A stretch of 34,807 nt of DNA from a virus (lineage: Duplodnaviria; Heunggongvirae; Uroviricota; Caudoviricetes), in IMG/VR virus record IMGVR_UViG_2526164649_000022, one strand, 5' to 3'. The position numbers and the translations under genes are program-made. Position 1 is the first letter of the stretch. Each line of letters begins with the position of its first letter. Below, in pieces: positions 1-34,493 of this stretch. The notes under the pieces were generated by a model, which saw only the letters and a list, made by a program, of their open reading frames with translations, was not told the DNA's origin and did not search any database.

Positions 1-738
1 TCACTTCGGGTAAGGCTGAATCCTGAATAGCTTAGTATTTAGTCGCTTTCTTGCGCGCTTGTTCAGGAACCTGATGTAACGATATTGATTAAATTTGTGT
101 ACCACGGCCCGCTCCTTATTCGCTCGTAAATATTCGCCGCGCTTCCCTCCACGATTAATCGCATTCATCGTTATCTCGTGATACCACTCACCGTCCAGTT
201 CGTAGAATATGCTTTCATGGCTGCCAATAAAATCAAAATTTGACGCCTGATACACAACACCTGCACACCCGCAACGTTCGTCTGCAAAGGACTGAACCCA
301 CTCCACTGACGGATACAGTAACCTGATGGTTTTCAGCGCGTAGCTGATGGCCCGTGATTCAGAGTTGCGGGGCATGTCGTCGTGTAGCCACATGCGGTTC
401 AGTTCCATATAGCCCCGGTTATCCGTTTCAAGCACAACGCGACGCCCTGAGTTGGGGTTAAGGGCATATCCCCACTGAAGAACACCAACCAGATCACGTC
501 CACTGAATACGCCCAGATGCAACCAGGAGTTATTCACAAAACGGCGGGAATAATGCTTTGTCTGAATGATTGTGCGGGCCAGCCAGCAGGATATGGTTTC
601 AACGCGCAGCTCCCTTGAACCATAGCCGACAATCCGGCCTTCATACTCAATAACGCAGGGTTTTGTCAGAATGCGTGATTTCTTCTCTTTTCCCACAATA
701 CAGCTCCGTGGGATGCTCCCGGGCACTCGATATGACAA
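1..738 (-). CDS. mom: Mom-like DNA modification (anti-restriction) protein; stop codon at window positions 1-3; start uncertain because the reading frame overlaps com
   Basis: 245-aa ORF immediately downstream of, and overlapping, a recognisable com zinc-finger gene, as in the Mu com-mom operon at the phage right end. Confidence 0.7.
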
Positions 739-832
739 TGTAACGTTTACAGCGAGGACATTTGATTTCTATATGCTTAAAACCTCCTTTAAACAGCAAT
801 TTATTGCAATTTTTACAACGAACAGAGTCCAT
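647..832 (-). CDS. com: Com zinc-finger translational activator of mom
   Basis: Internal Met of the 81-aa track ORF gives a 61-aa product [13 protein letters not shown]...CPRCKR with a CxxC...CxxC zinc finger closely matching recalled Mu Com; overlaps mom. Confidence 0.8.
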
Positions 833-892
833 AATTTCCCCCAGTGTAATAACAGGATATAGCTGCCCGGAGGGCTGGGGGTATTTAATCAC

Positions 893-957
893 ACTTGATG
901 CAAACCGACGATCGATATGATGCTATCGATCGTCATAAACTATACAAACTGATTATT
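893..957 (-). promoter_or_regulatory. Putative com-mom promoter/operator region with a Dam-site inverted repeat
   Basis: Perfect 10-bp inverted repeat ACGATCGATA/TATCGATCGT (908-917 and 924-933) carrying two GATC sites, about 75-100 bp upstream of the com ATG; Mu Pmom is known to be Dam/OxyR regulated. Confidence 0.4.
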
Positions 958-1059
958 TAATCGCCTGGTAGACTGGCCCCCTGAATCTCCAGACAACCAG
1001 TATCACTTATTTAAGTGATAGTCTTAATACTAGTTTTTAGACTAGTCATTGGAGAACAG

Positions 1060-1425
1060 ATGATTGATGTCTTAGGGCCGGAGAAACGCAGACGGCGTAC
1101 CACACAGGAAAAGATCGCAATTGTTCAGCAGAGCTTTGAACCGGGGATGACGGTCTCCCTCGTTGCCCGGCAACATGGTGTAGCAGCCAGCCAGTTATTT
1201 CTCTGGCGTAAGCAATACCAGGAAGGAAGTCTTACTGCTGTGGCCGCCGGAGAACAGGTTGTTCCTGCCTCTGAACTTGCTGCCGCCATGAAGCAGATTA
1301 AAGAACTCCAGCGCCTGCTCGGCAAGAAAACGATGGAAAATGAACTCCTCAAAGAAGCCGTTGAATATGGACGGGCAAAAAAGTGGATAGCGCACGCGCC
1401 CTTATTGCCCGGGGATGGGGAGTAA
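1060..1425 (+). CDS. insC: IS2 transposase OrfA (InsC)
   Basis: [40 protein letters not shown] matches recalled InsC; the track ORF start at 1015 is an upstream extension. Confidence 0.9.
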
Positions 1426-2288
1426 GCTTAGTCAGCCGTTGTCTCCGGGTGTCGCGTGCGCAGTTGCACGTCATTCTCAGACGAACCGATGACTGGATGG
1501 ATGGCCGCCGCAGTCGTCACACTGATGATACGGATGTGCTTCTCCGTATACACCATGTTATCGGAGAGCTGCCCACGTATGGTTATCGTCGGGTATGGGC
1601 GCTGCTTCGCAGACAGGCAGAACTTGATGGTATGCCTGCGATCAATGCCAAACGTGTTTACCGGATCATGCGCCAGAATGCGCTGTTGCTTGAGCGAAAA
1701 CCTGCTGTACCGCCATCGAAACGGGCACATACAGGCAGAGTAGCCGTGAAAGAAAGCAATCAGCGATGGTGCTCTGACGGGTTCGAGTTCTGCTGTGATA
1801 ACGGAGAGAGACTGCGTGTCACGTTCGCGCTGGACTGCTGTGATCGTGAGGCACTGCACTGGGCGGTGACTACCGGCGGCTTCAACAGTGAAACAGTACA
1901 GGACGTCATGCTGGGAGCGGTGGAACGCCGCTTCGGCAACGATCTTCCGTCGTCTCCAGTGGAGTGGCTGACGGATAATGGTTCATGCTACCGGGCTAAT
2001 GAAACACGCCAGTTCGCCCGGATGTTGGGACTTGAACCGAAGAACACGGCGGTGCGGAGTCCGGAGAGTAACGGAATAGCAGAGAGCTTCGTGAAAACGA
2101 TAAAGCGTGACTACATCAGTATCATGCCCAAACCAGACGGGTTAACGGCAGCAAAGAACCTTGCAGAGGCGTTCGAGCATTATAACGAATGGCATCCGCA
2201 TAGTGCGCTGGGTTATCGCTCGCCACGGGAATATCTGCGGCAGCGGGCTTGTAATGGGTTAAGTGATAACAGATGTCTGGAAATATAG
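1383..2288 (+). CDS. insD: IS2 transposase OrfB (InsD), DDE integrase domain
   Basis: 301-aa ORF overlapping insC in the arrangement typical of IS3-family OrfA/OrfB. Confidence 0.9.
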
Positions 2289-2919
2289 GGGCAAATCCAC
2301 CTGGTCTGAACGCTCTCACCTCGTCCAGTGTGGGCAACAGAGAAAGTTGTTCTTTCATCTCCCGCTGACAGCGATAAATCTCATCGTTGCGCTCAACAAT
2401 GGCCTGTATCATCGCTGTGGCCAGTTCCTCAAGTTCCTGCGTCGTCAGCTGCACCTGCTGATTATCCGCATCACTCCACGTCATATTTGTTTGTGCCGCG
2501 ACAGATTTTGCCAGCATGACTACCGGGGACAGGCGGCCCAGTGAGTCGGGGCCAGCATTCCAGATACGACCGTTCCATTCAAACGTGAACGGCTTCGCCT
2601 CCTGTTCTGTGCGCCATGCTTCAATTTCCTGACGTCTGGCCTCTCTGGCCGCTTCCAGCATTTCTGGTGTCACAGTGAATGGGGCTATCTCACCCCATTT
2701 GCCACTTTGCAGTTCCTGCCAGATTCGCTGACCCGTCGGTGCGACATCATCAGCGGTGGCTGTGTAGGGGACTGCCTGGTCCCTGTCGTCAAAAAAAACG
2801 TCACAGTCTACTGCGCCACTTTCGGTATAACGGGGATTAATGATTTTTTTAATTTCCACGGTGCATTCCTCACGATGTGCGAATAAAAAGCCCGGGCATT
2901 GCGCCAGAGACATGAGCAT
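2122..2919 (-). CDS. Phage tail-module protein (putative second tail-fibre assembly/chaperone-like); phage-derived part is 2300-2919; C-terminus replaced by read-through into IS2
   Basis: Position directly downstream of a tail-fibre gene; removing IS2 and one duplication copy restores ...RAFRPGD followed by TAA. A GTG start at 2859 with a GAGGA Shine-Dalgarno is plausible instead of the ATG at 2919. Confidence 0.5.
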
Positions 2920-3223
2920 CCGGCACCCCGGACAGGGCGCAATATGACCCCGGTAATGAATGCTCTGAACATCCCGTAATGAAAAATTGTGGGGATGCTA
3001 TATACGTTCCGGTGGGAGTACTGGGCACTGAAATCCCCACCGGTCCCAGTCGTGAGCCTCTGTATGACTGCCCCCTGACAAGTCTGATGACTTTATCACC
3101 GTCAGCTTCTCCCTGGTACGCAGCAATAATCAGCCCGCCAATGTCAGGGTCTCCCCATCTGTTGCGGACAGAGCTCGCCACGATTCTGTAAATAATATCT
3201 TCTGTGGTTATATTTATTTTCAC
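2870..3223 (-). CDS. Hypothetical small protein between tail fibre and assembly-like gene
   Basis: 117-aa ORF whose GTG start overlaps the stop of the upstream fibre gene (GTGA); no recognisable domain. Confidence 0.3.
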   Translation of the reverse strand: MKINITTEDIIYRIVASSVRNRWGDPDIGGLIIAAYQGEADGDKVIRLVRGQSYRGSRLGPVGISVPSTPTGTYIASPQFFITGCSEHSLPGSYCALSGVPDAHVSGAMPGLFIRTS

Positions 3224-4272
3224 CCAGTCAGTCTGGATATGGGCCAGTAGCAGTAGCGGGTGTGATAAATGGGGCCGTTAATGCCGTAAAAAGTAAGGGA
3301 TTTGGCTCTGTACCGCGGTTCTGTTGTCTCAGGGCGTGCATCAGTCCACCGGATGCTGAGCCCCCCTTCAAACCGTGTGTCGGGTATGATGATGCCGTAG
3401 GGGCCAGCAACGGAATATTCAACTGGCAGCGCATTCCTTACCCAGGCCAGGAAATCACTCTTAGTGTCAAAACGGATAACATCTTCAGGCAGAAAAGCAC
3501 ACCCAAAGCCGAATGCGCCGGGTATCGCCAGACGGCCTTTTGTCCGGTCGTAAATGTCGCTCTGTGCTTCCATCGTGGCCGCACTTTTCAGCCCCAGATT
3601 ATCCCGGGACTTCTGTTGTGCCTTTTCGCCTGCTGCTGCGATTTCAGACAGATGGTTAGCCGTTTTCAGAGTGCCGGTCAGCGCAGCATCAATGTCATTT
3701 TTGGCCTGCTCTGCTGCGCGGGCATAACCTGCGGCTGCCTGTGCACGCTGACCGGATAAGACGGCGTTTTTCCCTGTGCTTTTCACGTCTTCCGCTGTGG
3801 CCTTTCTGTTCTCAGCTGTGACGCTTGCATCCTGTCGGGCTTTCTCCGCAAAACGTTGTGCATCATCACGGGCCGTTGCGGCTGCCGTCACATCCTGCGC
3901 CGTCTGCCGTGCGTTTCCGGCTGCGCTCCCGGCACTCTGCTGCGCCTGTTGCGCCAGCTCTTCGAATTTCTTCAGGGATTCCGGACGCAGGTCAATATCA
4001 GTTGCGCCCAGAAAATCATTCAGCGAACCGTCCGTTGAATCTTCATAAACGCGGATGACACCGATTTCTGAAAGGCGCTGTGTGCTTTGTGTCAGGCGAA
4101 CGCTGTACACACCCGGCAGAACGGGGAAGTCATATTCCCCGTTCTGTGTGGTGACATGGCTGAAAACACTTTTCAGAATCCCTGCACGGTTGTGCATGGA
4201 GGTTAGTGTAATGGTTGCGCCGCCCAGCGGTTCTCCCGTGGGCGTTTTAATCACACCTTTAAGCTGCGGCAT
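3220..4272 (-). CDS. Tail fibre protein with lambda side-tail-fibre-like N-terminal domain
   Basis: N-terminus MPQLKGVIKTPTGEPLGGATITL...VYEDSTDGSLNDFL resembles the lambda Stf N-terminal domain, followed by an Ala/Gln-rich coiled region and a distinct C-terminal domain. Confidence 0.7.
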   Translation of the reverse strand: MPQLKGVIKTPTGEPLGGATITLTSMHNRAGILKSVFSHVTTQNGEYDFPVLPGVYSVRLTQSTQRLSEIGVIRVYEDSTDGSLNDFLGATDIDLRPESLKKFEELAQQAQQSAGSAAGNARQTAQDVTAAATARDDAQRFAEKARQDASVTAENRKATAEDVKSTGKNAVLSGQRAQAAAGYARAAEQAKNDIDAALTGTLKTANHLSEIAAAGEKAQQKSRDNLGLKSAATMEAQSDIYDRTKGRLAIPGAFGFGCAFLPEDVIRFDTKSDFLAWVRNALPVEYSVAGPYGIIIPDTRFEGGLSIRWTDARPETTEPRYRAKSLTFYGINGPIYHTRYCYWPISRLTG

Positions 4273-4804
4273 CGGGACGCTCCGGCCAGTTGATGGCGTT
4301 ATATGTGGCTTTATCTGTGATGGTGCTGAAATCCATCGCCTGCAGTGATTTCGCGTAAATACGGTACGCTTTCAGCTTTTCTTTATCTTCGTCGCTGATT
4401 AACCCCAGCAGCAGGTCTTCTTCCCATTCCCCTGTCCGGGCACTGACCTGAGCCAGAAGGGCATCACGCTCATCTTCCGCTTTGAGTCTGTAGTCAAAGA
4501 CAAATTCATCATTGCGGTAAAACCAGTAACCCGGCGCGGTAATGCGGCGGTTGGCGGTAATATCAGGAACTTCAATAACACTGGCGTTACGGGGTTCAAT
4601 GCCTGTCACATCCTTACCGACCCACACCACGCGCCCGTCTCCGGTGTAAACCATTTTTATGGTGTCACTGGCAAAGTTCTTCTGTTCTTCATACCAGTTT
4701 TTGCCGTCTTCCGAAAAAAGCCAGGTGACATCATACTGTTTTGTCAGCTGATATTGTTCCGCGGTTTTCGGATTACCTGCCGTAATATTTTTTAAATGCA
4801 ACAT
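4259..4804 (-). CDS. Tail fibre assembly protein (Tfa / Mu U-like)
   Basis: MLHLKNITAGNPKTAEQYQLTKQYDVTWLFSEDGKNWYEE is the conserved N-terminus of lambda Tfa / P2 G / Mu U chaperones. Confidence 0.8.
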   Translation of the reverse strand: MLHLKNITAGNPKTAEQYQLTKQYDVTWLFSEDGKNWYEEQKNFASDTIKMVYTGDGRVVWVGKDVTGIEPRNASVIEVPDITANRRITAPGYWFYRNDEFVFDYRLKAEDERDALLAQVSARTGEWEEDLLLGLISDEDKEKLKAYRIYAKSLQAMDFSTITDKATYNAINWPERPDAAA

Positions 4805-4806
4805 TG

Positions 4807-5907
4807 TTAAATACTCGCTACGTTATACCAGGTGCCATTAATCAGTTTTTGCAGCGGTCGGTAATACACACCGTTGACGTTATCCGCTGAGTTACGGCCG
4901 GTATCCGATATCGATATCCCTGACAACCCGTGTCCCGAAGGTGCGCGAAATGTCCATGAAACAGTGTTACTGCCGGGGCCGTAATACATTTCATAACCAT
5001 ACCGCACATCCTGCACGCCACCATTTCGCTGCTGGTAACGGGCATCAAAGTTTCCGTAGTCTGACGGTGTTACCCGTCCTGTAACGTTTACAGCTTTATT
5101 ACTCTGGATACTGCCACTCTGAAAACGCAACACATGCACGCTATTGGCATAAACATCCAGCAGGCCATCACCATTCTGTTTAAATCCGGTGTCATTATCA
5201 CCAAGAACAATTGAATTCCCCCCCAGGGCGTTCTGAACGCCGATACCCAGCGCACCATTGACCTGCGAACCACCGCCAACAGACACTTTATGCGACATGG
5301 ATATTTCACCCGTCCGCAAATTAATGGTGAACGGGCGCAGGGGACCAATATCGCCATTTTCCCCCTGACCTTCACTGGTGGGAATAAGGTGAAGGCACTC
5401 TTCCGAACGACGAAAAATCAGGCCAAAAGCTTCGTTGAAAATCCTCAGCGCATTAACACCACGGATTTTCAGCTCCCCTGTCATCGTGCCGCCTGATTGT
5501 TTTATGACTTTCAGTGCATCTGCAAAATCTGTTGCACTCTCTTTGCCGAGAATACCGCGCACAAAAGCACTGAGCGGCGTTAATGCCATTGTGTCTTTGC
5601 CGGTAAAATAAGGGAATGTATTATTCTGACCGGTTAATCCGGCAATAGCACCGGCTGAACCACTGTTCGTAATAAACAGCTTTTTCAGCGCCGTCATAAT
5701 CTGGTCGGTTGTGTTTTTATCCGGTTTGATATTTGCCTGCCGGAGTATTTCCAGTAATTCAGACTGAATAATATTAAACCAGTCCGGCCCCGGATACGTG
5801 GGCGGAATACCGTTCCCGCCTTCGGTGAAATAAAGCGTTGTTTTGCTTAATTCAGCTGCGACAGGTGGCATTACCGGCACACCCGTCGGGTTATCCACAT
5901 AAAACAT
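4807..5907 (-). CDS. Tail fibre protein (Mu S position)
   Basis: 366-aa Gly/Ser-rich ORF between baseplate genes and tfa; gene-order inference. Confidence 0.6.
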   Translation of the reverse strand: MFYVDNPTGVPVMPPVAAELSKTTLYFTEGGNGIPPTYPGPDWFNIIQSELLEILRQANIKPDKNTTDQIMTALKKLFITNSGSAGAIAGLTGQNNTFPYFTGKDTMALTPLSAFVRGILGKESATDFADALKVIKQSGGTMTGELKIRGVNALRIFNEAFGLIFRRSEECLHLIPTSEGQGENGDIGPLRPFTINLRTGEISMSHKVSVGGGSQVNGALGIGVQNALGGNSIVLGDNDTGFKQNGDGLLDVYANSVHVLRFQSGSIQSNKAVNVTGRVTPSDYGNFDARYQQRNGGVQDVRYGYEMYYGPGSNTVSWTFRAPSGHGLSGISISDTGRNSADNVNGVYYRPLQKLINGTWYNVASI

Positions 5908-5910
5908 AAA

Positions 5911-6495
5911 TTATTCTCCGGTGTAATAATATTCATATTCCGTGCCCGCCAGCCGGTAATGCTTCAGCAGGCATTCCAGCTCACGGGGGCGTTCGCTGAT
6001 TAATGGTGTCATGACGCCATCAATACAGGTAAACCGCCCGGCATCTTTACCCGGGACGTTCACTTTCAGCATCCAGCGATACCGCGCCGGATGCAGCGGA
6101 TACATGCAGTCGCGCAGACAGTGGTGCGGCAGAACGGCTGTCACCTTAATGGTGAAGCCCAGCGCCGCTGCTGCGGCTTCAGTCTGCCAGGTTGCCAGCC
6201 CGCCCCTGCGACGGTATTTCTCCACCACGGCACGGCGGCGGGCTTCCCTGGTGGTGGGGGCAATTCCGCATTCCGGCAGCGCCAGATACTGCTCCCACTC
6301 CGGCAGCAGCCGGAGCGTGGTTTCCGGGCGCATCTCCACATGCAGACGCGAGGCGTCGTATTCAGTGCGGTTTAAACGTTCTGCAAGCGCCCTTAAAAAG
6401 CGGTTTAAATCCGCGTCGTTATCACGCGGCCATGCCTTACCCCGTGGCATGACCTGTTGCAGTGCGGCCAGCCATTCCGTCACGCTGTGAGCCAT
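5911..6495 (-). CDS. Baseplate/tail protein (Mu gp48-like)
   Basis: 194-aa ORF at the gp48 position between the baseplate J-like gene and the fibre gene. Confidence 0.55.
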   Translation of the reverse strand: MAHSVTEWLAALQQVMPRGKAWPRDNDADLNRFLRALAERLNRTEYDASRLHVEMRPETTLRLLPEWEQYLALPECGIAPTTREARRRAVVEKYRRRGGLATWQTEAAAAALGFTIKVTAVLPHHCLRDCMYPLHPARYRWMLKVNVPGKDAGRFTCIDGVMTPLISERPRELECLLKHYRLAGTEYEYYYTGE

Positions 6496-7556
6496 GTCAC
6501 CTCCCCGATGGTGATAAGCTCATCCACATCACTGGTGGTGTCCTCCCCGATGTTAAGGAAGTAATCCGTGATGCCGGACGTCATACCGATGGCCGTGCGC
6601 AGCGAGGACACCGGCAGCGTCTGACCGGGTGCCAGTGTCTTCTGTAACGCGGTCAGGTTTGCCCGGACGGCGCTCCTGTTCGCCAAGCTGTCCGGTGTCA
6701 GACGGATGGATATGCTGACTTTCTTCAGCCTGACCTGTACCGGCCAGACCTCAATGCCGCCCGGTTTACCCACCATGACGCCCGTGGCCGGGTGTTTGTG
6801 GCAGAACAGATACTGCTCCATTGTCTTCAGGTCTTCGCGGGTTGGCACGATGTTTTCCCGGTCATCATAAAGCCATGCCAGCCCGACCGTGCCGGGGCCG
6901 TGCCATGCATCCCACGCCCACGCGCGGCTGACGCCCGGCACTTCACGCGCCCATATCACGTAGTCATGCAACGCGCCGCCTGTCGGTGGATTGCGGCGCA
7001 CATACAGCAGACGGTCCAGCAGCGCTGCGATGGATTCAGTGTCTGCGCCACCGGTGATGCCACCTTCAGCCACCGCGCCTGTGCTGGCCGTTCCGGGCAG
7101 CGGGGACAGCAGGGTGAGTACGGCACCGGCAGCAAGATTGCCCGCCACACCGGCTTCTTCAGCCTGCACGATGACGGTGACCTCGCCGTCCTGCACCTCG
7201 CCGGACGTGAGTACCTGATACACCTGGTTCGTGTCGGACTGCATCCGGGTTTCTGCCGGAAGGGGGGACTGACTGGTGAAGGTCACCCGCCCGCTGGCAA
7301 AGGTGGCCTGCTTGCGGATAACCCCTTCATACTTTGCTGTTTTGATAATGGTTTCATCATCAGACGTGGTGGACGGGATTATCTGGTCCTTAATCCAGCT
7401 CTGATGGTCGTATAAATCCCGGACCTGACTGCTGAATGACACGTTCAGCGCCTGCTCAACACTGACAGGCGGCAGCTTTTGCAGGCCGAGTTCATACGCA
7501 ATATCTTTTTCGCCGTCGGCAATCAGTTTGCCCAGCGTGGGGATTTCATACGGCAT
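6480..7556 (-). CDS. Baseplate J-like protein (Mu gp47-like)
   Basis: 358-aa ORF, size and order match baseplate J family in Mu-like tails. Confidence 0.65.
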   Translation of the reverse strand: MPYEIPTLGKLIADGEKDIAYELGLQKLPPVSVEQALNVSFSSQVRDLYDHQSWIKDQIIPSTTSDDETIIKTAKYEGVIRKQATFASGRVTFTSQSPLPAETRMQSDTNQVYQVLTSGEVQDGEVTVIVQAEEAGVAGNLAAGAVLTLLSPLPGTASTGAVAEGGITGGADTESIAALLDRLLYVRRNPPTGGALHDYVIWAREVPGVSRAWAWDAWHGPGTVGLAWLYDDRENIVPTREDLKTMEQYLFCHKHPATGVMVGKPGGIEVWPVQVRLKKVSISIRLTPDSLANRSAVRANLTALQKTLAPGQTLPVSSLRTAIGMTSGITDYFLNIGEDTTSDVDELITIGEVTWLTA

Positions 7557-7998
7557 TAATGGTGGCCTCCCATCGACGGGTGATTTCGATTCTGAGTGTG
7601 GTTTTGTCCGGGCGGGTTAACACCACCAGAAAGGCAATACGGTCAGGAATGATGATGCTGGCCGTGACGGTGGCGTTACGGGCGTAACCGGCACGCAGAA
7701 GCGGCTGCATGGACAGCCGCGCGTAATCTTCCACGCGCAGGCGGACATCTTCCGTCAGCTTTTCACGCTCAAGCAGCCACAGGCGGGAACCCCACGAAAA
7801 ATCGCTGTACGTGTCGCCCGGCCAGCCGCGCGGGTCGCCGGAGCCGTCAGGAATGACATCATCGTCATCAGCGCGGGCATCGGTGAAAAGGCAGATAAGA
7901 ACCTGAGTGACCAGCCCCTCATCCCGTGAGAGGCCGTTATGGGTGACGGTGATGTCACCTCGTGAGAGCATGTTATTCCAGCGGATTTCTGTCGTCAT
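7546..7998 (-). CDS. Baseplate protein (Mu gp46-like)
   Basis: 150-aa ORF translationally coupled within the baseplate operon. Confidence 0.55.
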   Translation of the reverse strand: MTTEIRWNNMLSRGDITVTHNGLSRDEGLVTQVLICLFTDARADDDDVIPDGSGDPRGWPGDTYSDFSWGSRLWLLEREKLTEDVRLRVEDYARLSMQPLLRAGYARNATVTASIIIPDRIAFLVVLTRPDKTTLRIEITRRWEATINAV

Positions 7999-8531
7999 AC
8001 GGGCGGTGATGTATTCTCATTGTCGCCGTCCTTATGAATGTGTTCGCTGAATGATTTACCCTTGATTCTGACATCTTCAGTGAATTCACAGGGACCGACG
8101 AATTTCATTTGTTTACCGATAATATTCAGCAGTTCGTCGGCAGTGAGATTTACCGTTTTCCCTGAAAAGTCTAATTGTTCTCCTGTGATTTCAATGACGC
8201 CGTTTTCCTTCAGGGTGATGTGTGATTTGCCGTCCCGGTGATACACCCTGACATCGCCGGGGGACAGTCCTTTCGGGCGACATCGCTTGTCTTCCACCGC
8301 GATGGCAACCAGCCCGTCACGCCGTCCGCCAACGGCCAGCACAATGGCTTCAGAACCTTCCGGCGGAACGGACGTAAACCCGTAGTTCTGGAAGCGTTCC
8401 ACGTCGTCATCGGTGGCATCTGCCAGCGTCTGAATTTGCAGGTTCTGCCGTGCCAGACCGTCAGACACCAGGCGGACAACAGCGCGGTCAACCATCAGTC
8501 GCAGGCGGCGAGCAATTGCGTTTAATCCCAT
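7995..8531 (-). CDS. Baseplate assembly protein V / spike (Mu gp45-like)
   Basis: 178-aa ORF at the gpV position; gene-order inference. Confidence 0.6.
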   Translation of the reverse strand: MGLNAIARRLRLMVDRAVVRLVSDGLARQNLQIQTLADATDDDVERFQNYGFTSVPPEGSEAIVLAVGGRRDGLVAIAVEDKRCRPKGLSPGDVRVYHRDGKSHITLKENGVIEITGEQLDFSGKTVNLTADELLNIIGKQMKFVGPCEFTEDVRIKGKSFSEHIHKDGDNENTSPPV

Positions 8532-9591
8532 GTGGCCACCGCCTTTGTTTTTTCGTCTTCGCTTTCATTTCCGGCATGTCCAGTGATTCAGGCGGAACCA
8601 GCGCCAGAACCGTCATCCTCCCCTGTGCGCCATCCGTCCATGTCACCCCGGATATCAGCCAGGTGGTTTTCAGGTTCTGAATGCTGTCGTCGATATCGAC
8701 AAGGCGGTTGGTCTGCCACAGCGGGCCGCTGTCGCCCTGTTCGCGCCAGCCTGCCACCGTGATTTCCGTCGTGCGGGACTCTCCCAGCATCCGGGCTTTG
8801 TACCATTCCCCGCGCATGCTGGCCCCGCCCACGGTCAGGCTGTCTTCATTGACCAGAATGCGCGGGCGGTAACGGTTAATTTCCGGGTCTTCGGTGATGT
8901 ACTGGCGACCGCCCACCATCGGGGCAGGCTGGCTGTCCCACAGTTTGCCACCGGCACTGGTGGTGCCCTTGATGATGTACTGGCTGTTACGCTCCCGCCA
9001 GCTGAAGCGCCCACGGGCGGCGAGGATATTTTTTCCCAGCACCAGTGACACGCCCGCGCGAACGGAAGAGGCGCGGGTGATAATCAGGTTACCCGCGCCG
9101 TCAGACGTCAGCAGAACGCCGCGCTGTTTTGCCAGCCGGTCGAGCAGTTCAAAGCCCGTTTCACCCTGTTCCAGAACGACAGACGCAAATGCCTCCCCGG
9201 TCGGGGTTTCCGTGATGACGGTTATCCCGAACGGGCGGCAGACATCAGCCGCCACCTGTTCAAGCCGCACGCCTTTCCATTTCCCGGACGAATGCACCAC
9301 AGAGCAGTCCACCAGGTCGCCGGTTTTATCGCGCCCCATGACGCGAATCTCCAAGTTTTCAGCGTCATAGCCGGGAATAAAATCATCGATATACCCCGTC
9401 AGCACGGTATCCGCGCCCAGCCTGACCGTGCAGGGTTGCCCCTCACGAATCACGCGCGGTGCCGCCGCTGACCAGCGGGTTGTCACACTGAGTTCAAACT
9501 CACCGGCAATCGCCTTCAGGGAACGGCTGACGGACATTTCCGTCCAGCCTTCCCACAGTTTGCCGTCAACGGTAAGAATCACGGATTCCAT
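8488..9591 (-). CDS. Tail/baseplate hub protein (Mu P, gp44-like)
   Basis: 367-aa ORF between N-like and V-like genes. Confidence 0.6.
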   Translation of the reverse strand: MESVILTVDGKLWEGWTEMSVSRSLKAIAGEFELSVTTRWSAAAPRVIREGQPCTVRLGADTVLTGYIDDFIPGYDAENLEIRVMGRDKTGDLVDCSVVHSSGKWKGVRLEQVAADVCRPFGITVITETPTGEAFASVVLEQGETGFELLDRLAKQRGVLLTSDGAGNLIITRASSVRAGVSLVLGKNILAARGRFSWRERNSQYIIKGTTSAGGKLWDSQPAPMVGGRQYITEDPEINRYRPRILVNEDSLTVGGASMRGEWYKARMLGESRTTEITVAGWREQGDSGPLWQTNRLVDIDDSIQNLKTTWLISGVTWTDGAQGRMTVLALVPPESLDMPEMKAKTKKQRRWPHGIKRNCSPPATDG

Positions 9592-10865
9592 CAGTCGGTG
9601 ATCTCCACAGGTTGCGTCGGCAGGATGAATGACGGATGACGCAGGCGGTTACGCTGCACGATTTCATCCCGTCGGCGTGTGTCACCATGCTCGCGCCATG
9701 CCAGCAATGCGGCAGAGGTGGTTGTGGTCAGCGTCACCTGCCGGGTTTCCGGCAGACGGGCGGCACGCTCGCGGGCATCCGTAATCACGGCCTGCCGTAA
9801 ATCGCGCAGCGTTCGCCACAATGTCCGCTGGTTGTTTTCCACCGCCGCCACCGCCTGCTCATGCAGTTCAGCCGCCAGCGTGTCACCGGCAGATAACGCC
9901 GCATCACGGGTATCGAACGTCATCGAGGCCACGGCACTGGCCTGTCCCAGCAGGGCTCCCAGCACAACCACCTGGCGGAAGTCGTCAATGTTCTTTTGCA
10001 GGCTGTCAGATACCGGCTGATAATCCGGTGACAGCCCGATGGCAAAGCCGGGGTTGCCGTCTGCCACGCTGCCGGGCTTCACGGTGATATCTTCCGGCAG
10101 TGCGCCGGTGGCAATCTGCCTGGCACGTTCTCCGGCCCACTGGTTGCGTAATGTCGTGTAAACCGCCAGTGCTTCGGGTGGTTCCGTCACAAGGCCCGCA
10201 ATATCTTCCACCCGTGCTGACAGCTCACTGACCAGACGCCCCGGTGTGGCAATGAGGGTTCCGGCCATCGCCTTAAAATGCTTCAGCCTGTCCATCCACT
10301 GATTCAGTGCTGCCGGTAACGTGGGCAGGTTAGCCACAAGGTTTTCCATATCGGCCAGAAAACTGTCGGCCATGTCACCCAGCCCGTCGAGTGCGCCGAA
10401 CCAGTCGCCATCGTCAATGGCGGCTTTCACCGCATCAATGCCTGTCAGCACTTCCTGCTGCGTGTTATCCGCCGCAGACGGGAACAGGCGCTCGCCTGCC
10501 TCAAACACTTCAAAGGTGACATACGCAATGCCGTCTTCCTCCGTGCAGAGGCGATGGGTGACCTTGCCAACCTGTACGGTCTGTATCCCGAACCACGGGT
10601 GGACAAGCTCGCCGGGGCCGGGGGTATTGAGCGCATCTAAAAGGGCGTTTAAATCATCCCGGAAGTTTTTACCTGGCAGCTTTGCGTTAATCTGCTGTTG
10701 CCCCGGAACGGCCCCGTTATCATCCGTCCAGGCGGTTTCACGCCGGGGATAAGCACGGGGAATGGCACGACGACCACCGGTGCCCTCCGTATCCACCAGA
10801 AAGAAGGGGACGCCACGAAACGAGGCGTCGCGCAGCCCGTCCCATTTACCGTTGCTCGTTGTCAT
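9591..10865 (-). CDS. DNA circulation protein N-like (Mu gp43-like)
   Basis: 424-aa ORF immediately downstream of the tape measure gene with overlapping start/stop. Confidence 0.6.
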   Translation of the reverse strand: MTTSNGKWDGLRDASFRGVPFFLVDTEGTGGRRAIPRAYPRRETAWTDDNGAVPGQQQINAKLPGKNFRDDLNALLDALNTPGPGELVHPWFGIQTVQVGKVTHRLCTEEDGIAYVTFEVFEAGERLFPSAADNTQQEVLTGIDAVKAAIDDGDWFGALDGLGDMADSFLADMENLVANLPTLPAALNQWMDRLKHFKAMAGTLIATPGRLVSELSARVEDIAGLVTEPPEALAVYTTLRNQWAGERARQIATGALPEDITVKPGSVADGNPGFAIGLSPDYQPVSDSLQKNIDDFRQVVVLGALLGQASAVASMTFDTRDAALSAGDTLAAELHEQAVAAVENNQRTLWRTLRDLRQAVITDARERAARLPETRQVTLTTTTSAALLAWREHGDTRRRDEIVQRNRLRHPSFILPTQPVEITD

Positions 10866-12685: not shown

Positions 12686-12752
12686 GATTTCCGTGCTGAG
12701 ACGGCTACCTGAGGTGTACTGGCAATAGCGGACACTACCATTTGTTCTTTTT

Positions 12753-13571
12753 TTAAGCAGCCATCTGATGATATTTTTCCCTGAAGGCTGCCGGGGAGAT
12801 ATTCCCCAGACGAGAGTGACGACGCTGACGATTGTAGAAAATCTCAATGTATTCCCGTATTACTGAGATGGCTTCATCCCGGTTATTAAAACGATAGTGG
12901 CTCAGGCTCTCATTTTTCAGCGTTCCCCAGAAGCTTTCCATCGGAGCGTTGTCGTAACAGTTACCTTTACGCGACATTGATGTTTTCAGACCAGACTGCT
13001 CCTGTATGACCCGGTAATCGTATGCGCAGTACTGTGAACCTCGATCAGAGTGGTGGATTAGCCCGGCAGGTGGGCGCTGGCTCCTGAGCGCCATAAACAG
13101 GGCTTTACCTGTCAGCTCTTTTGTCATGCGCTCTCCCATGGCGTAGCCGACAATTTCACACGTATAAACATCTTTGATGCCAGCGAGGTACAACCATCCC
13201 TCCTGTGTGGCAACATACGTCAGGTCCGCCACCCAGACCTGATTTGGTGCTGTAGGAGCGAACGTCTGGTTCAGCAGATTTGGCGCAACTGGCAGATTGT
13301 GGTTCGGGTTCGTAGTCGCTCTGAACTTGCGTTTCTGCTTACAGCGTAGCCTTAGCTCCTTACGAAGACGTGCCAGTCGGTCACGACCAACGATGATGCC
13401 ATTCTCTGCCAGCTCCGTCTGGAGCCGCCGGGTTCCATATGTTTCGCGAGTGCGGATATGTGCCACCTTAATCTCCAGTTTTAGCCGCTCATCACTTTGT
13501 TTTCTGTCTGAGGGTTCATGCTGTACCCAGTTGTAATAACCGCTCCTGGATACACCAAATACCTGACACAT
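12753..13571 (-). CDS. IS600 transposase OrfB (DDE integrase domain)
   Basis: 272-aa ORF with IS3-family integrase features, downstream of OrfA. Confidence 0.9.
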   Translation of the reverse strand: MCQVFGVSRSGYYNWVQHEPSDRKQSDERLKLEIKVAHIRTRETYGTRRLQTELAENGIIVGRDRLARLRKELRLRCKQKRKFRATTNPNHNLPVAPNLLNQTFAPTAPNQVWVADLTYVATQEGWLYLAGIKDVYTCEIVGYAMGERMTKELTGKALFMALRSQRPPAGLIHHSDRGSQYCAYDYRVIQEQSGLKTSMSRKGNCYDNAPMESFWGTLKNESLSHYRFNNRDEAISVIREYIEIFYNRQRRHSRLGNISPAAFREKYHQMAA

Positions 13572-13606
13572 CGCTTCAATGGGAAATTGTTGTCGCCATT
13601 GTTCGA

Positions 13607-13909
13607 TTAACGCGTATTTTTCAGCGACTCCTGTGCAAAATACGCTGTTGCTTTTTTTAATATATCTCGCTCAAGGCGAGCTTCATTTAACGCCTTACGC
13701 AGTTGCAGAATTTCAGATTCCAGTTCAGCCACCGTGCGGGAACCAGGAGTACCGAGCCCTTTTCTGGCGGCGGTAACCCATTGTCCTAAAGTGCCTTCAG
13801 GAAGGGATAATCGGGAAGCGCCTTCACTGATCGAAAGTTGATTTTCAAGAACCGTTCTGACAGCTTCGGCTTTGAACTCTTTAGAGTAACGTTGGGTTTT
13901 TCTGCTCAT
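13607..13909 (-). CDS. IS600 transposase OrfA (HTH/leucine zipper)
   Basis: 100-aa ORF MSRKTQRYSKEFKAEAVRTVLENQLSISEGA..., typical IS3-family OrfA. Confidence 0.9.
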   Translation of the reverse strand: MSRKTQRYSKEFKAEAVRTVLENQLSISEGASRLSLPEGTLGQWVTAARKGLGTPGSRTVAELESEILQLRKALNEARLERDILKKATAYFAQESLKNTR

Positions 13910-13965
13910 TATTAGCTCCTTCTGATGCCATTCTATTTCAGGAAGGAGTGTCCGTTAAACTCAGG

Positions 13966-14181
13966 CTACCTCAACCTGTTGCCATACTGTTTCTCCAGTT
14001 GCTTTATCAGGCGGAACAACTGCCGCAGGGGCAGTTGTTCCAGGTACTGAATGCTGAATCGCGAAGACAGGTTAACCAGCAGGTTCATCAGTGCCGCCGC
14101 CAGCGGCATCAGTTCGCCCCCGCGTTGCCACCTCCTCAAGCATGTCATCCAGCACAGCCGCTTTCGTGCTGATAAGCTCAA
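13966..14181 (-). CDS. Frameshift extension frame of the tail assembly chaperone (G-T-like); last two codons and stop lie in the IS600 terminus
   Basis: ORF overlapping the 3' end of the chaperone gene in another frame, with a G5 run (C5 on plus strand, 14117-14121) at the overlap. Confidence 0.45.
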   Translation of the reverse strand: MSLSARKRLCWMTCLRRWQRGGELMPLAAALMNLLVNLSSRFSIQYLEQLPLRQLFRLIKQLEKQYGNRLR

Positions 14182-27945: not shown

Positions 27946-28395
27946 TTAAGGACGTCGTGGCGGACGACGAACGGGGTGAGGCAGGTTCGGGGAGTGGTAA
28001 AACAAATCCGGCTGGTATTTATTACACTCCAGACGCCGCATCCGCTTGATGGCCTTGTAGACGGTTTTATACGTCACCCCGTAACGCTGAACCAGTTCAG
28101 GAATATTATGGCCGTTAAAATCACGCCAGATACGCATATCCCGGACAAGATTCTCCAGAATATTCCCCCTCGGAACATAAACCTGCATCCCGCCGATATA
28201 GCGACAAATCGCCACAACCAGCTCAAGGGAATGGGCAGGGTCTGCGCCAATCCGGGCCAGCTCTTTACGCAGCAGTGCGTTCAGTTCAGAAAGTAACGCC
28301 GGATAAGCCGTGTTTTCCTGGTAATCGTTAAGGTATTCCAGAACGCTGTCGTCCCGGAAGTCTTCGAATAAATCCTGCTCTTTCATCTGTTTCAT
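27946..28395 (-). CDS. mor: Mor/C-family transcriptional activator of middle/late genes
   Basis: 149-aa ORF directly downstream of GemA-like gene with C-terminal helix-turn-helix region (ELVQRYGVTYKTVYKAIKRMRR), as in Mu Mor/C. Confidence 0.7.
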   Translation of the reverse strand: MKQMKEQDLFEDFRDDSVLEYLNDYQENTAYPALLSELNALLRKELARIGADPAHSLELVVAICRYIGGMQVYVPRGNILENLVRDMRIWRDFNGHNIPELVQRYGVTYKTVYKAIKRMRRLECNKYQPDLFYHSPNLPHPVRRPPRRP

Positions 28396-29081: not shown

Positions 29082-29136
29082 GGTAATGCTGCCAACTTAC
29101 TGATTTAGTGTATGATGGTGATTTTAAGGTGCTTGC

Positions 29137-29412
29137 GTGGCTTCCATTTCCATCAGATGTCCTTCCTGCTCCGCTACTGAAGGCGTGGTGCGTAACGGCA
29201 AAAGCACTGCCGGACATCAGCGCTATCTCTGCTCTCATTGCCGTAAAACATGGCAACTACAGTTCACTTACACCGCCTCTCAGCCCGGTACGCACCAGAA
29301 AATCATTGATATGGCCATGAATGGCGTCGGATGTCGCGCCAGTGCACGCATTATGGGCGTTGGCCTCAACACGGTTTTACGTCACTTAAAAAACTCAGGC
29401 CGCAGTCGGTAA
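29137..29412 (+). CDS. insA: IS1 InsA
   Basis: 91-aa [42 protein letters not shown]... matches recalled InsA. Confidence 0.9.
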
Positions 29413-29834
29413 CCTCGCGCATACAACCGGGCAGTGATGTGATTGTCTGCGCTGAAATGGACGAACATTGGGGCTACGTCGGTGCTAAATCACGTCAGCG
29501 CTGGCTGTTTTACGCGTATGACAGGATACGGAGGACGGTTGTGGCGCACGTCTTCGGTGAACGCACTCTGGCCACACTGGAGCGTCTTCTGAGCCTGCTG
29601 TCGGCCTTTGAGGTCGTGGTATGGATGACGGATGGCTGGCCGCTGTATGAATCACGCCTGAAGGGAAAGCTGCACGTTATCAGCAAGCGTTACACTCAGC
29701 GCATTGAGCGACATAATCTGAATCTGAGACAACATCTGGCAAGGCTGGGACGGAAGTCACTGTCGTTCTCAAAATCGGTGGAGCTGCATGACAAGGTCAT
29801 CGGGCATTATCTGAACATAAAACACTATCAGTAA
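29331..29834 (+). CDS. insB: IS1 InsB reading frame (expressed as InsAB' by -1 frameshift)
   Basis: ORF overlapping the insA 3' end and ending ...[15 protein letters not shown], as in IS1. Confidence 0.85.
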
Positions 29835-29880
29835 GTTGGAGTCATTACCCGGATTTTGACGTTCATTGTCAGCGTTCCTT

Positions 29881-33273: not shown

Positions 33274-33337
33274 TGAGGTAGCCTGAGTTTAACGGACACT
33301 CCTTCCTGAAATAGAATGGCATCAGAAGGAGCTAATA

Positions 33338-33640
33338 ATGAGCAGAAAAACCCAACGTTACTCTAAAGAGTTCAAAGCCGAAGCTGTCAGAACGGTTCTT
33401 GAAAATCAACTTTCGATCAGTGAAGGCGCTTCCCGATTATTCCTTCCTGAAGGCACTTTAGGACAATGGGTTACCGCCGCCAGAAAAGGGCTCGGTACTC
33501 CTGGTTCCCGCACGGTGGCTGAACTGGAATCTGAAATTCTGCAACTGCGTAAGGCGTTAAATGAAGCTCGCCTTGAGCGAGATATATTAAAAAAAGCAAC
33601 AGCGTATTTTGCACAGGAGTCGCTGAAAAATACGCGTTAA
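33338..33640 (+). CDS. IS600 OrfA (copy 2; one Ser-to-Phe difference from copy 1)
   Basis: 100-aa ORF identical to copy 1 except SRLSLPEG to SRLFLPEG. Confidence 0.85.
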   Translation: MSRKTQRYSKEFKAEAVRTVLENQLSISEGASRLFLPEGTLGQWVTAARKGLGTPGSRTVAELESEILQLRKALNEARLERDILKKATAYFAQESLKNTR

Positions 33641-33675
33641 TCGAACAATGGCGACAACAATTTCCCATTGAAGCG

Positions 33676-34493
33676 ATGTGTCAGGTATTTGGTGTATCCA
33701 GGAGCGGTTATTACAACTGGGTACAGCATGAACCCTCAGACAGAAAACAAAGTGATGAGCGGCTAAAACTGGAGATTAAGGTGGCACATATCCGCACTCG
33801 CGAAACATATGGAACCCGGCGGCTCCAGACGGAGCTGGCAGAGAATGGCATCATCGTTGGTCGTGACCGACTGGCACGTCTTCGTAAGGAGCTAAGGCTA
33901 CGCTGTAAGCAGAAACGCAAGTTCAGAGCGACTACGAACCCGAACCACAATCTGCCAGTTGCGCCAAATCTGCTGAACCAGACGTTCGCTCCTACAGCAC
34001 CAAATCAGGTCTGGGTGGCGGACCTGACGTATGTTGCCACACAGGAGGGATGGTTGTACCTCGCTGGCATCAAAGATGTTTATACGTGCGAAATTGTCGG
34101 CTACGCCATGGGAGAGCGCATGACAAAAGAGCTGACAGGTAAAGCCCTGTTTATGGCGCTCAGGAGCCAGCGCCACCTGCCGGGCTAATCCACCACTCTG
34201 ATCGAGGTTCACAGTACTGCGCATACGATTACCGGGTCATACAGGAGCAGTCTGGTCTGAAAACATCAATGTCGCGTAAAGGTAACTGTTACGACAACGC
34301 TCCGATGGAAAGCTTCTGGGGAACGCTGAAAAATGAGAGCCTGAGCCACTATCGTTTTAATAACCGGGATGAAGCCATCTCAGTAATACGGGAATACATT
34401 GAGATTTTCTACAATCGTCAGCGTCGTCACTCTCGTCTGGGGAATATCTCCCCGGCAGCCTTCAGGGAAAAATATCATCAGATGGCTGCTTAA
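33676..34493 (+). pseudogene. IS600 OrfB (copy 2), frameshifted by a 1-bp deletion
   Basis: Copy 1 reads AGCGCCCACCTGCC, copy 2 AGCGCCACCTGCC (about 34171-34176); ORF splits into 33676-34188 and 34269-34493. Confidence 0.8.

What the first reader, a model, noticed from the sequence alone, without database searches (positions are those of the whole stretch)
1..892. com-mom anti-restriction module retained intact in a decaying prophage
While the transposase is doubly inactivated and three other IS elements have invaded, com (61 aa, zinc finger intact) and mom (245-aa open frame with stop at the window edge) remain uninterrupted. Mom-type DNA modification protects DNA from restriction, so retention might reflect selection or simply recent decay.
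Basis: inference. Interest (0 to 1): 0.4.

Follow-up and report, generated by a model that had tools for sequence, protein, structure and literature searches.

The report
Intact com-mom genes, decaying Shigella prophage
The window starts with an intact copy of the well-known phage Mu com-mom DNA-modification (anti-restriction) genes at the right end of a recently decayed Mu-like prophage of Shigella flexneri, and their survival looks like chance and recency, not selection, so the finding is correct but ordinary.

Summary
On the minus strand, com (647..832, 61 aa, four zinc cysteines) overlaps mom. Mom is 95% identical to phage Mu Mom and its crystal structure 8BV8, and every residue shown to matter for activity is present. 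The Com-binding hairpin, the translation-inhibition hairpin and a GATC-bearing inverted repeat upstream are also conserved.

The window is a Shigella flexneri prophage, 100% identical to AKMV01000036.1. It is 98-99.8% identical to an uninterrupted Mu-like prophage in E. coli VL40. Relative to VL40 it carries IS2, two IS600, IS1 with a deletion, and several frameshifts, yet about 35 of 41 compared genes remain intact. With about 8 lesions in 30 kb, a 0.9-kb cassette escapes about 78% of the time.

Long-term dN/dS of mom is 0.06. The only two S. flexneri-specific changes, R144C and T163I, are both nonsynonymous. They sit at naturally variable positions, and the pattern matches the prophage-wide recent ratio of 12 N : 6 S. 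So there is no sign of selection for retention, and recent neutral decay is favoured. The module looks coding-competent but is probably silent. Known gene family; low interest.

The parts
1..696 (-). mom coding sequence: 231 aa, GTG start at 696..694, TGA stop at 3..1. It encodes a GNAT-fold, Gly-tRNA(Gly)-dependent adenine N6 modifying enzyme.
   Evidence: It is 95% identical in protein to Mu Mom. It matches PDB 8BV8 'Methylcarbamoylase mom' at E 1e-151, full length and ungapped. Pfam PF25680 scores 249.9 bits. All residues reported as essential or important are present.
697..738 (-). Open frame upstream of the GUG start. GTG at 726..724 corresponds to the start of the 241-aa form of Mom. TTG at 738..736 is merely the first start codon of the maximal 245-aa ORF.
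   Evidence: Removal of the first 10 residues of the 241-aa form is tolerated (PMC13219725).
647..832 (-). com coding sequence: 61 aa, a zinc-ribbon translational activator of mom. Its 3' end overlaps mom by 50 nt (647..696).
   Evidence: It is 72% identical to Mu Com and keeps all four zinc cysteines. Pfam PF10122 scores 30.5 bits. It is 100% identical to Com of the intact VL40 prophage.
713..726 (-). Predicted Com-binding hairpin in the mRNA: a 4-bp stem and the 6-nt loop CCGGGA, carrying the CC(N)2-3GAG recognition motif.
   Evidence: The same two-hairpin fold is predicted for the window and for Mu. The block GAGCATCCCACGGAG is invariant against Mu. The motif comes from PMC6483171.
692..712 (-). 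Predicted translation-inhibition structure (TIS): the stem CCCAC(GG)/(U)UGUGGG sequesters the mom GUG start codon.
   Evidence: predict the same hairpin, at the same place, in Mu and in the window. The role of the TIS is taken from the literature.
833..906 (-). com leader and promoter-proximal region. The block TGTGATTAAATACCCCCAGCCCTCCGGGC...GTTATTACAC is conserved within this prophage lineage. It is diverged from Mu Pmom and 10 nt shorter.
   Evidence: Alignments. The sigma-70 consensus scan found no match, which fits an activator-dependent promoter. The exact -10 element and transcription start were not assignable.
907..934 (.). Perfect 11-nt inverted repeat GACGATCGATA-N6-TATCGATCGTC holding two GATC (Dam) sites. 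It is homologous to the first two of the three GATC sites of the Mu mom upstream (OxyR/Dam) region.
   Evidence: repeat I2. It is conserved in all lineage members and in Mu. The third Mu GATC is absent here.
935..968 (-). Upstream limit of the conserved com-mom cassette (about 941, at TTTGTATAG). Beyond it lie the last codons and stop of the DUF4376 tail-fibre-assembly gene.
   Evidence: Lineage members with different upstream genes become alignable only from about window 941.
969..2299 (+). IS2 (1331 bp) with a 5-bp target duplication CCTGG (964..968 and 2300..2304). It lies 136 bp upstream of the com ATG and is transcribed away from com. It replaces the last codon of the DUF4376 gene with a read-through tail.
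   Evidence: IS2 is absent from the same site in S. flexneri CP100042.1 and others. The name IS2 rests on my recall of its terminal sequence; the ORFs are IS3-family (rve, HTH_Tnp_1).
209..267 (-). The two S. flexneri-specific substitutions in mom. Position 267 is CGT>TGT, R144C (R154C in 241-aa numbering). Position 209 is ACA>ATA, T163I (T173I).
   Evidence: These are the only differences from VL40 in 969 nt and are unique among 12 copies of this lineage. Both columns vary in 117 homologues: position 144 is R70/G24/C11/K10, and position 163 is T57 plus many others including I and V.
27946..28395 (-). The only Mor/C-family activator gene of the prophage, a Mor orthologue. It is intact and a candidate trans-activator of late genes.
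   Evidence: It is 61% identical to Mu Mor and 32% to Mu C. It is 100% identical to the VL40 copy. No C or Gin homologue was found anywhere in the window.

Best explanation
Window 1..941 (minus strand) is the right-end com-mom cassette of a Mu-like transposable prophage of Shigella flexneri.

**How the module works (established for phage Mu; inferred here from conservation).**
1. An activator-dependent promoter upstream of com is guarded by a GATC-containing inverted repeat. In Mu this is the Dam/OxyR switch.
2. The bicistronic mRNA is translated into Com, a Cys4 zinc-ribbon protein.
3. Com binds a small hairpin carrying CC-N2-3-GAG and opens the adjacent stem that hides the mom GUG start.
4. 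Mom, a dimeric GNAT-fold enzyme, transfers glycine from Gly-tRNA(Gly) to N6 of adenine in double-stranded DNA.
5. The adduct rearranges to N6-carbamoylmethyl-adenine, which blocks many restriction enzymes.

**Status in this genome.** The cassette is intact in coding sequence and in cis elements. That is because the prophage began to decay only recently and the 0.9-kb cassette has simply not been hit yet, not because the host selects for it.

**Likely expression.** It is most likely transcriptionally silent.
- Its expression belongs to the late lytic programme.
- The early operon that would have to deliver the Mor-type activator is interrupted by IS600, a frameshift, and IS1 with a deletion.
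- The element cannot replicate because transposase A is dead.
For: **Shown here.**
- *Identity of the genes:*.
- *Catalytic residues:* W38, H48, Y49, R101, S114, D139, R141, Y149 and W171 are all present (231-aa numbering; add 10 for the numbering in PMC13219725).
- *RNA elements:* the two-hairpin architecture and the Com motif are conserved.
- *Upstream element:* the GATC inverted repeat is conserved across the lineage and in Mu.
- *IS2 position:* IS2 sits about 25 bp outside the conserved cassette, faces away from com, and is absent in other S. flexneri strains.
- *Recency:* identity to the uninterrupted VL40 prophage, which sits at a different chromosomal site, is 99.8% over 1..969 and 98-99.8% elsewhere. 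The right-end (attR) sequence is identical.
- *Not exceptional:* 35 of 41 compared genes are undisrupted. P(no hit in 941 of 30183 nt, given 8 lesions) = 0.78.
- *No purifying-selection signal in the S. flexneri branch:* mom shows 2 N: 0 S. That has P = 0.03 under the long-term omega of 0.06 and P = 0.59 under neutrality.
- *Prophage-wide pattern:* recent window-specific changes are 12 N: 6 S, against 52 N: 132 S in older mosaic blocks (Fisher P = 0.002).

**From the literature.**
- Mechanism of Mom: PMC13219725.
- Com/TIS translational control: PMC6483171.
- Silencing and cytotoxicity of mom: PMC3378877.
- Cryptic Mu-like remnants are common in S. flexneri: PMC4406740.
Against: - All seven S. 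flexneri loci examined carry an identical, intact com-mom despite differing decay elsewhere. This could hint at retention. However, they were retrieved by exact Mom sequence, so the sample is biased.
- The same 2:1 N:S ratio is seen in the intact VL40 lineage (11:7). It may therefore reflect the youth of the polymorphisms and not relaxed constraint specifically.
- Silence is inferred, not shown. The activator and promoter of com-mom in this C-less lineage are unknown. The Mor orthologue and gemA are intact, with 133 nt of native upstream sequence, so expression from an internal promoter is not excluded.
Confidence: 0.8

Rival explanations
1. Host selection (domestication). S. flexneri keeps com-mom because occasional Mom expression benefits the cell, for example by protecting its own or outgoing DNA from restriction, or as an epigenetic mark. 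On this view the cassette is preserved while the rest of the prophage rots.
For: The cassette and all its cis elements are uninterrupted. All S. flexneri loci examined have the identical sequence while differing elsewhere. Decayed copies in S. dysenteriae also keep com and mom.
Against: - Those loci were ascertained through the exact Mom or Com protein.
- Escape by chance has a probability of about 0.78, and 85% of the other compared genes are also intact.
- Both lineage-specific changes in mom are nonsynonymous, the opposite of what purifying selection predicts.
- Mom is cytotoxic and multiply silenced outside late lytic growth (PMC3378877).
Confidence: 0.07
2. A cryptic pseudogene. The frame is open, but the enzyme is already dead because R144C alters the loop between the essential residues D139/R141 and Y149, and/or because T163I sits just before the HTH-like insertion.
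For: - Both changes are derived, unique to S. flexneri, and nonsynonymous.
- R144 lies three residues after R141 (= R151), whose alanine mutant is inactive.
- R and T are the majority residues at the two positions.
Against: - Position 144 is naturally R, G, C or K. Cys occurs in 11 diverse full-length homologues at 50-79% identity.
- Position 163 is highly variable, and Ile, Val and Leu all occur there.
- Every residue reported as important, and every invariant column, is unchanged.
- Neither position is reported as tested in the main text of PMC13219725 or PMC7261163. The supplementary files were not held.
Confidence: 0.1

Closest known systems
Phage Mu com-mom operon (Mu_52/Mu_53 of AF083977), and the same genes in D108 and SfMu
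   Same: - The gene order and the com/mom overlap are the same.
- Mom is 95% identical and Com 72% identical, with the same four zinc cysteines.
- The Com-target hairpin, the TIS with the GUG start, and two of the upstream GATC sites are present.
- The position is the same, at the extreme right end next to attR.
   Different: - There is no gin and no invertible G segment upstream. A DUF4376 tail-fibre-assembly gene abuts the cassette instead.
- The promoter-proximal 70 nt are diverged and 10 nt shorter, and the third GATC is missing.
- The prophage has no C activator, only a Mor orthologue.
- Com is one residue shorter.
Uninterrupted Mu-like prophage of E. coli VL40 (NZ_CM177011.1, 3661478..3695810), and its relatives in E. 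coli FDAARGOS_943, S. dysenteriae Sd197 and others
   Same: It belongs to the same prophage lineage. Com is identical, Mom differs at 2 residues, and the right-end (attR) sequence is identical. The overall gene order is the same, and the upstream region is the same.
   Different: VL40 has none of the four IS copies, the deletion or the frameshifts called here against it, and it sits at another chromosomal site (cusS/vgr). The S. flexneri copy lies next to a truncated UbiD-family gene near mutS.
Cryptic SfMu-like prophage remnants of S. flexneri (Jakhetia and Verma 2015, PMC4406740)
   Same: These are defective Mu-like elements that are widespread in S. flexneri serotypes.
   Different: The window's element is not SfMu. 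Its com-mom is only about 88% identical in DNA to SfMu, and it lacks gin and C. That paper's gin-mom PCR would not have detected it.

Membership tests
Mom (Pfam PF25680; GNAT-fold Gly-tRNA(Gly)-dependent adenine N6 aminoacyltransferase) | Full-length sequence match to the family profile and to the solved Mu Mom structure | tested here: met
   PF25680 scores 249.9 bits against a cutoff of 27.1, covering the whole profile. The match to 8BV8 is E 1e-151 over residues 1-231, ungapped. Identity to Mu Mom is 95%.
Mom (Pfam PF25680; GNAT-fold Gly-tRNA(Gly)-dependent adenine N6 aminoacyltransferase) | Essential or important residues: R111, S124 and R151, plus W48, H58, Y59, D149, Y159 and W181 (241-aa numbering) | tested here: met
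   All are present at the equivalent positions 101, 114, 141, 38, 48, 49, 139, 149 and 171. The residue list comes from PMC13219725 and PMC7261163.
Mom (Pfam PF25680; GNAT-fold Gly-tRNA(Gly)-dependent adenine N6 aminoacyltransferase) | HTH-like insertion (about residues 175-209), which is required for activity | tested here: met
   The alignment to 8BV8 is ungapped through this segment, with 3 conservative differences.
Mom (Pfam PF25680; GNAT-fold Gly-tRNA(Gly)-dependent adenine N6 aminoacyltransferase) | Formation of N6-carbamoylmethyl-adenine in DNA, giving restriction protection | not testable with these tools
   This needs expression of the allele and LC-MS or restriction assays.
Com (Pfam PF10122 Zn_ribbon_Com; translational activator of mom) | Profile match and the Cys4 zinc ribbon | tested here: met
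   The profile scores 30.5 bits against a cutoff of 22.9. C6, C9, C25 and C28 align with Mu C6, C9, C26 and C29.
Com (Pfam PF10122 Zn_ribbon_Com; translational activator of mom) | Encoded immediately upstream of and overlapping mom, with a cognate RNA target (a hairpin carrying CC(N)2-3GAG) next to a stem that sequesters the mom start codon | tested here: met
   The overlap is 50 nt. The motif is present, and an identical two-hairpin fold is predicted for the window and for Mu. The fold z-scores are weak, so this rests on homology, not on thermodynamics.
Com (Pfam PF10122 Zn_ribbon_Com; translational activator of mom) | Binding to mom mRNA and activation of its translation | not testable with these tools
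   This needs EMSA or reporter assays.
Mu-type Pmom transcriptional control (C activator plus Dam/OxyR) | A cluster of three GATC sites forming the OxyR/Dam switch upstream of the promoter | tested here: inconclusive
   Two of the three GATC sites are present, inside a perfect 11-nt inverted repeat that is conserved with Mu. The third is absent. OxyR binding was not tested.
Mu-type Pmom transcriptional control (C activator plus Dam/OxyR) | A phage-encoded C protein and its binding site at -28 to -57 | tested here: not met
   There is no C orthologue. The only Mor/C-family gene is 61% identical to Mor and 32% to C. The promoter-proximal sequence does not align with the Mu C site. No Pm-like Mor site lies upstream of com.
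Mu-like transposable prophage (defective) | Mu-type gene order (A, B ... gemA, mor, lysis, head, tail, com, mom), a conserved right end, and insertion at different sites in different hosts | tested here: met
   The annotated VL40 relative and the window are collinear. The right-end (attR) sequence is identical with different flanks in three genomes. Defectiveness is shown by the IS insertions, frameshifts and deletion.

The most novel reading that the evidence does not exclude
In this gin-less and C-less Mu-like lineage, com-mom may be a self-contained cassette. Its conserved left boundary is at about window 941, and it is found behind different upstream genes. Its promoter may answer to something other than the Mu C protein. 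If so, expression could be uncoupled from the broken lytic cascade. S. flexneri could then occasionally 'momylate' its own DNA from a domesticated prophage remnant, with the derived C144/I163 allele tuned for that role.
Probability: 0.05. Interest if true: 0.55.

Novelty: already known. Interest (0 to 1): 0.14.

Why it matters
It matters little beyond annotation. The genes are textbook Mu com-mom, and this exact protein is already deposited as 'phage Mu Mom-like protein [Shigella flexneri]'. The case is a clean example of why an intact gene in a decaying prophage should not be read as evidence of selection without a null model.

Two modest points could be useful.
- The S. flexneri allele offers natural variants (R154C and T173I in 241-aa numbering) next to the active-site loop of a newly understood enzyme class.
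- This prophage lineage shows that com-mom can exist without gin and without the C activator, so its transcriptional control there is unknown.

Tried and rejected
- **Are R144C and T163I inactivating hits?** I asked this first. I rejected it as the leading view, because both columns vary naturally and Cys and Ile occur in diverse homologues.
- **Did IS2 remove gin or truncate the promoter?** Rejected. A clean 5-bp target duplication shows a simple insertion. Relatives without IS2 have the DUF4376 gene directly upstream, and the insertion lies outside the conserved cassette.
- **Is there a C or Mor binding site upstream of com?** The Pm-like site GAAGCCGGTAAATCCGGCTTTTTT occurs only upstream of the lysozyme and protease genes. 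I could not assign a -10 element or transcription start for com.
- **NCBIfam scan:** no hits for Mom, Com or Mor.
- **Rfam scan of the whole window:** nothing.
- **Unbiased sample of prophage right ends:** I scanned genome contigs for the 26-nt terminal sequence. It returned only two loci. Both carry the inverted copy of the 26-mer in a context that differs from attR, and I read them as left ends of a related remnant followed by IS1. They were therefore uninformative about mom.
- **Mutant data for the two positions:** the supplementary mutagenesis data of PMC13219725 are not held.
- **ORF size check:** the exact 241-aa and 245-aa versions of the protein are not in the protein collection; only the 231-aa form is.

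Full report
**1. Observation**

The first 892 bases carry two overlapping minus-strand genes.
- The long frame is open from TTG at 738 down to a TGA at 3..1, exactly at the window edge.
- The short gene runs 832..647 and encodes 61 aa.

A BLASTN search of the phage collection hits only the com-mom region of Mu, D108, SfMu and close relatives. Identity is about 87-88% over window 822..1.

Against the annotated Mu genome:
- Mom is 95% identical in protein from the annotated GTG start.
- Com is 72% identical and keeps all four zinc-binding cysteines.
- Pfam confirms both families, with Mom at 249.9 bits and Zn_ribbon_Com at 30.5 bits.
- The solved Mu Mom structure 8BV8 aligns full length without gaps.

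The start homologous to the Mu GUG, which lies in the stem of the translation-inhibition structure (PMC6483171), is GTG 696..694 and gives 231 aa. The 241-aa form used by Silva et al. starts at GTG 726..724; Mu has ATG there. Removing those ten residues is tolerated (PMC13219725).

**2. Where the window comes from, and the state of the prophage**

The exact 231-aa Mom is deposited as 'phage Mu Mom-like protein [Shigella flexneri]'. It is found on S. flexneri contigs next to a truncated UbiD-family gene near mutS. Contig AKMV01000036.1 is 100% identical to window 1..10696.

An uninterrupted relative sits in E. coli VL40 between cusS and a vgr gene. The right-end (attR) sequence is identical in S. 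flexneri, VL40 and FDAARGOS_943 with different flanks, so these are independent transpositions of one phage lineage.

Lesions relative to VL40:

| Lesion | Window position | Effect |
|---|---|---|
| IS600 | 33274..34536 | interrupts transposase A |
| 1-nt deletion | ~31997 | frameshift in transposase A |
| IS1, no target duplication | 29082..29849 | adjacent loss of about 3 kb of the early region, including gam |
| IS600 | 12712..13973 | sits at the start of the tape-measure gene |
| 4-nt deletion | ~3233 | splits the second tail-fibre gene |
| 1-nt deletion | ~8553 | alters the C-terminus of baseplate P |
| 1-nt deletion | ~25544 | alters the C-terminus of the DUF2730 gene |
| IS2, CCTGG duplication | 969..2299 | replaces the last codon of the DUF4376 tail-fibre-assembly gene |

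**3. Is the module intact in more than its reading frames?**

*Coding.* The residues shown by mutagenesis to be essential or important are R111, S124, R151, W48, H58, Y59, D149, Y159 and W181 in 241-aa numbering. All are present. So is every invariant column of a 118-sequence family alignment. The only departure at a column that is at least 80% conserved is Y58W, which the intact VL40 prophage shares.

*RNA.* The block GAGCATCCCACGGAG and the GUG region are invariant against Mu. In a 44-nt context both sequences fold into the same two hairpins:
- a 4-bp hairpin whose 6-nt loop carries the Com recognition motif CC(N)2-3GAG;
- abutting it, the stem that pairs CCCAC with GUGGG and hides the start codon.

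The shuffle z-scores are weak. This inference therefore rests on homology to the experimentally probed Mu structure, not on thermodynamics.

*DNA.* Upstream of com, a perfect 11-nt inverted repeat with two GATC sites (907..934) is conserved in all lineage members and in Mu. There it corresponds to the first two of the three GATC sites of the mom upstream region, which I identify from my own knowledge of Mu with the Dam/OxyR sites. The next 70 nt are conserved within the lineage but not with Mu.

Lineage members that have different genes upstream become alignable only from about window 941. The cassette boundary therefore lies there, and IS2 (junction 968/969) is about 25 bp outside it. IS2 is oriented away from com and is absent at this site in other S. 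flexneri strains.

**4. Selection or recency?**

Long-term constraint on mom is strong. The Nei-Gojobori dN/dS against Mu is 0.06, with dS 0.45. That describes the gene's history as a phage gene.

Since the split from the VL40-type ancestor, the 969 nt have acquired exactly two changes. Both are nonsynonymous in mom: R144C at window 267 and T163I at window 209. Both are unique to S. flexneri among 12 copies of the lineage.
- Under omega 0.06, two nonsynonymous out of two has P = 0.03.
- Under neutrality, P = 0.59.

I polarised all differences across 41 genes using VL40 and FDAARGOS_943.

| Class of change | Nonsynonymous : synonymous |
|---|---|
| Window-specific, in recently shared genes | 12 : 6 |
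| VL40-specific, in recently shared genes | 11 : 7 |
| Window-specific, in older mosaic blocks | 52 : 132 |

The recent window-specific ratio is indistinguishable from neutral (P = 0.27). It differs from the older mosaic blocks (Fisher P = 0.002). So mom behaves like the rest of the element and shows no excess of constraint.

Intactness is also unexceptional.
- About 35 of 41 compared genes are undisrupted.
- With 8 lesions spread over 30,183 non-IS bases, a 941-nt target is missed with probability 0.78.

Decay is ongoing and strain-specific.
- IS2 is polymorphic among strains.
- The baseplate P frameshift is absent from two other strains.
- Other strains have different tail-fibre lesions.

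All seven S. flexneri loci have identical com-mom. They were retrieved through the exact Mom protein, however, so this cannot be counted as evidence of retention.

**5. Are the two substitutions inactivating?**

R144 (R154 in 241-aa numbering) lies in the loop D-E-R-C-G-R-A-G between D149/R151 and Y159. By my reading, which is inference, it is the fourth position of the GNAT R/Q-x-x-G-x-G/A motif.

In 117 homologues:
- Position 144 is R in 70, G in 24, C in 11 and K in 10. The Cys-bearing proteins are diverse and full length.
- Position 163 is T in 57 and otherwise R, E, K, D, V, P or S, with Ile in two.

Neither position is reported as tested in the main text of the papers I read. I therefore consider the protein probably active, with about 10% for the alternative.

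**6. Mechanism and likely expression**

The mechanism of Mom is now established for Mu. Glycine is transferred from Gly-tRNA(Gly) to N6 of adenine in dsDNA, followed by an on-base rearrangement to N6-carbamoylmethyl-adenine (PMC13219725). Com acts as an RNA-binding translational activator (PMC6483171). Transcription is silenced by several host factors because Mom is cytotoxic (PMC3378877).

In this lineage the transcriptional input differs from Mu.
- There is no gin and no C.
- The single Mor/C-family protein is a Mor orthologue, 61% identical to Mor and 32% to C.
- Near-exact copies of the Mu middle-promoter region, which I take to be the Mor site (GAAGCCGGTAAATCCGGC plus a T7 run), lie directly upstream of the lysozyme and protease genes. 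None lies upstream of com.

So the activator of com-mom here is unknown.

In S. flexneri the early operon that precedes gemA-mor is broken three times and transposase A is dead. I therefore infer that the cassette is silent. That step is inference.

**7. Verdict**

They belong to a thoroughly known family, and the exact protein is already in the databases. Cryptic Mu-like remnants in S. flexneri have been reported before (PMC4406740). Retention is best explained by recent, ongoing, essentially neutral decay.

Interest is low. The residual novel reading, a domesticated and independently expressed Mom, has about 5% probability.

Noticed in passing
window 27917-27940 and 20366-20389 (minus strand); compare L022 1176-1200 (Mu Pm): Two exact copies of GAAGCCGGTAAATCCGGCTTTTTT lie directly upstream of the lysozyme and head-protease genes. 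They are nearly identical to a sequence in the annotated phage Mu middle-promoter region, which I take to be the Mor-binding site. This lineage has a Mor orthologue but no C protein and no middle operon. It appears to run its late genes from Mor-type promoters, as a two-tier cascade instead of Mu's three tiers.
   Followed up: partly
window 2300-5907 (minus strand); L003 36123-39741: There is no gin invertase and no invertible G segment. Instead two tail-fibre plus assembly-protein pairs sit in tandem in the same orientation. In the window the second fibre gene is split by a 4-nt deletion (~3233). The same 350-aa truncated product is called in S. dysenteriae copies of the lineage.
   Followed up: partly
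window 832-844 and 875-887: A 13-nt, 85% complementary inverted repeat pairs the conserved upstream block TAAATACCCCCAG with the com Shine-Dalgarno and start region CTGGGGGAAATTA. If it were present on read-through transcripts it could mask com translation. Conservation in relatives is only partial (the C5/G5 core).
   Followed up: partly
window 1 and 34807: The window is cut exactly at gene boundaries: the mom stop codon at one end and the first base of the transposase A start codon at the other. The prophage ends (attR, about 115 bp beyond mom, and ner, c and attL beyond A) therefore lie outside it.
   Followed up: yes
window 12712-13973 and 33274-34536: The two IS600 copies are 99.7% identical and in opposite orientation, 19 kb apart. 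They are a ready substrate for inversion of the intervening prophage segment.
   Followed up: no
window 28947-29081: The 133 nt between gemA and IS1 match neither VL40 nor FDAARGOS_943. The early region of the S. flexneri element was therefore a different mosaic allele, and the size of the IS1-associated deletion (about 3 kb in VL40 coordinates) is only approximate.
   Followed up: partly
L004 10811-11308 (outside the window, beyond mom): In S. flexneri the prophage right end abuts a truncated UbiD-family decarboxylase gene (C-terminal domain only), followed by an EcdD/BsdD-like gene. The original transposition probably inactivated that host gene.
   Followed up: no
L027 5569-5594 and L028 2072-2097: The 26-nt right-end terminal sequence occurs inverted in S. 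flexneri SFBU1023 and E. coli ECMA0423, in a context that differs from attR. I read it as the left end of a related Mu-like remnant. An IS1 follows about 180 bp later, and no further similarity to the VL40 prophage locus, the S. flexneri locus L004 or the window was found. The exact right-end sequence itself was not found in SFBU1023, the only S. flexneri genome this scan returned, so the window's prophage end may not be universal in the species.
   Followed up: partly
RefSeq annotations under hits H16-H45: RefSeq names Com a 'DNA-binding transcriptional regulator', although the experimental literature describes it as an RNA-binding translational activator. Mom is named variously as 'protein mom', 'hypothetical protein', 'adenine methylcarbamoylation protein' or 'tRNA(Gly)-dependent adenine aminoacyltransferase'.
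   Followed up: no
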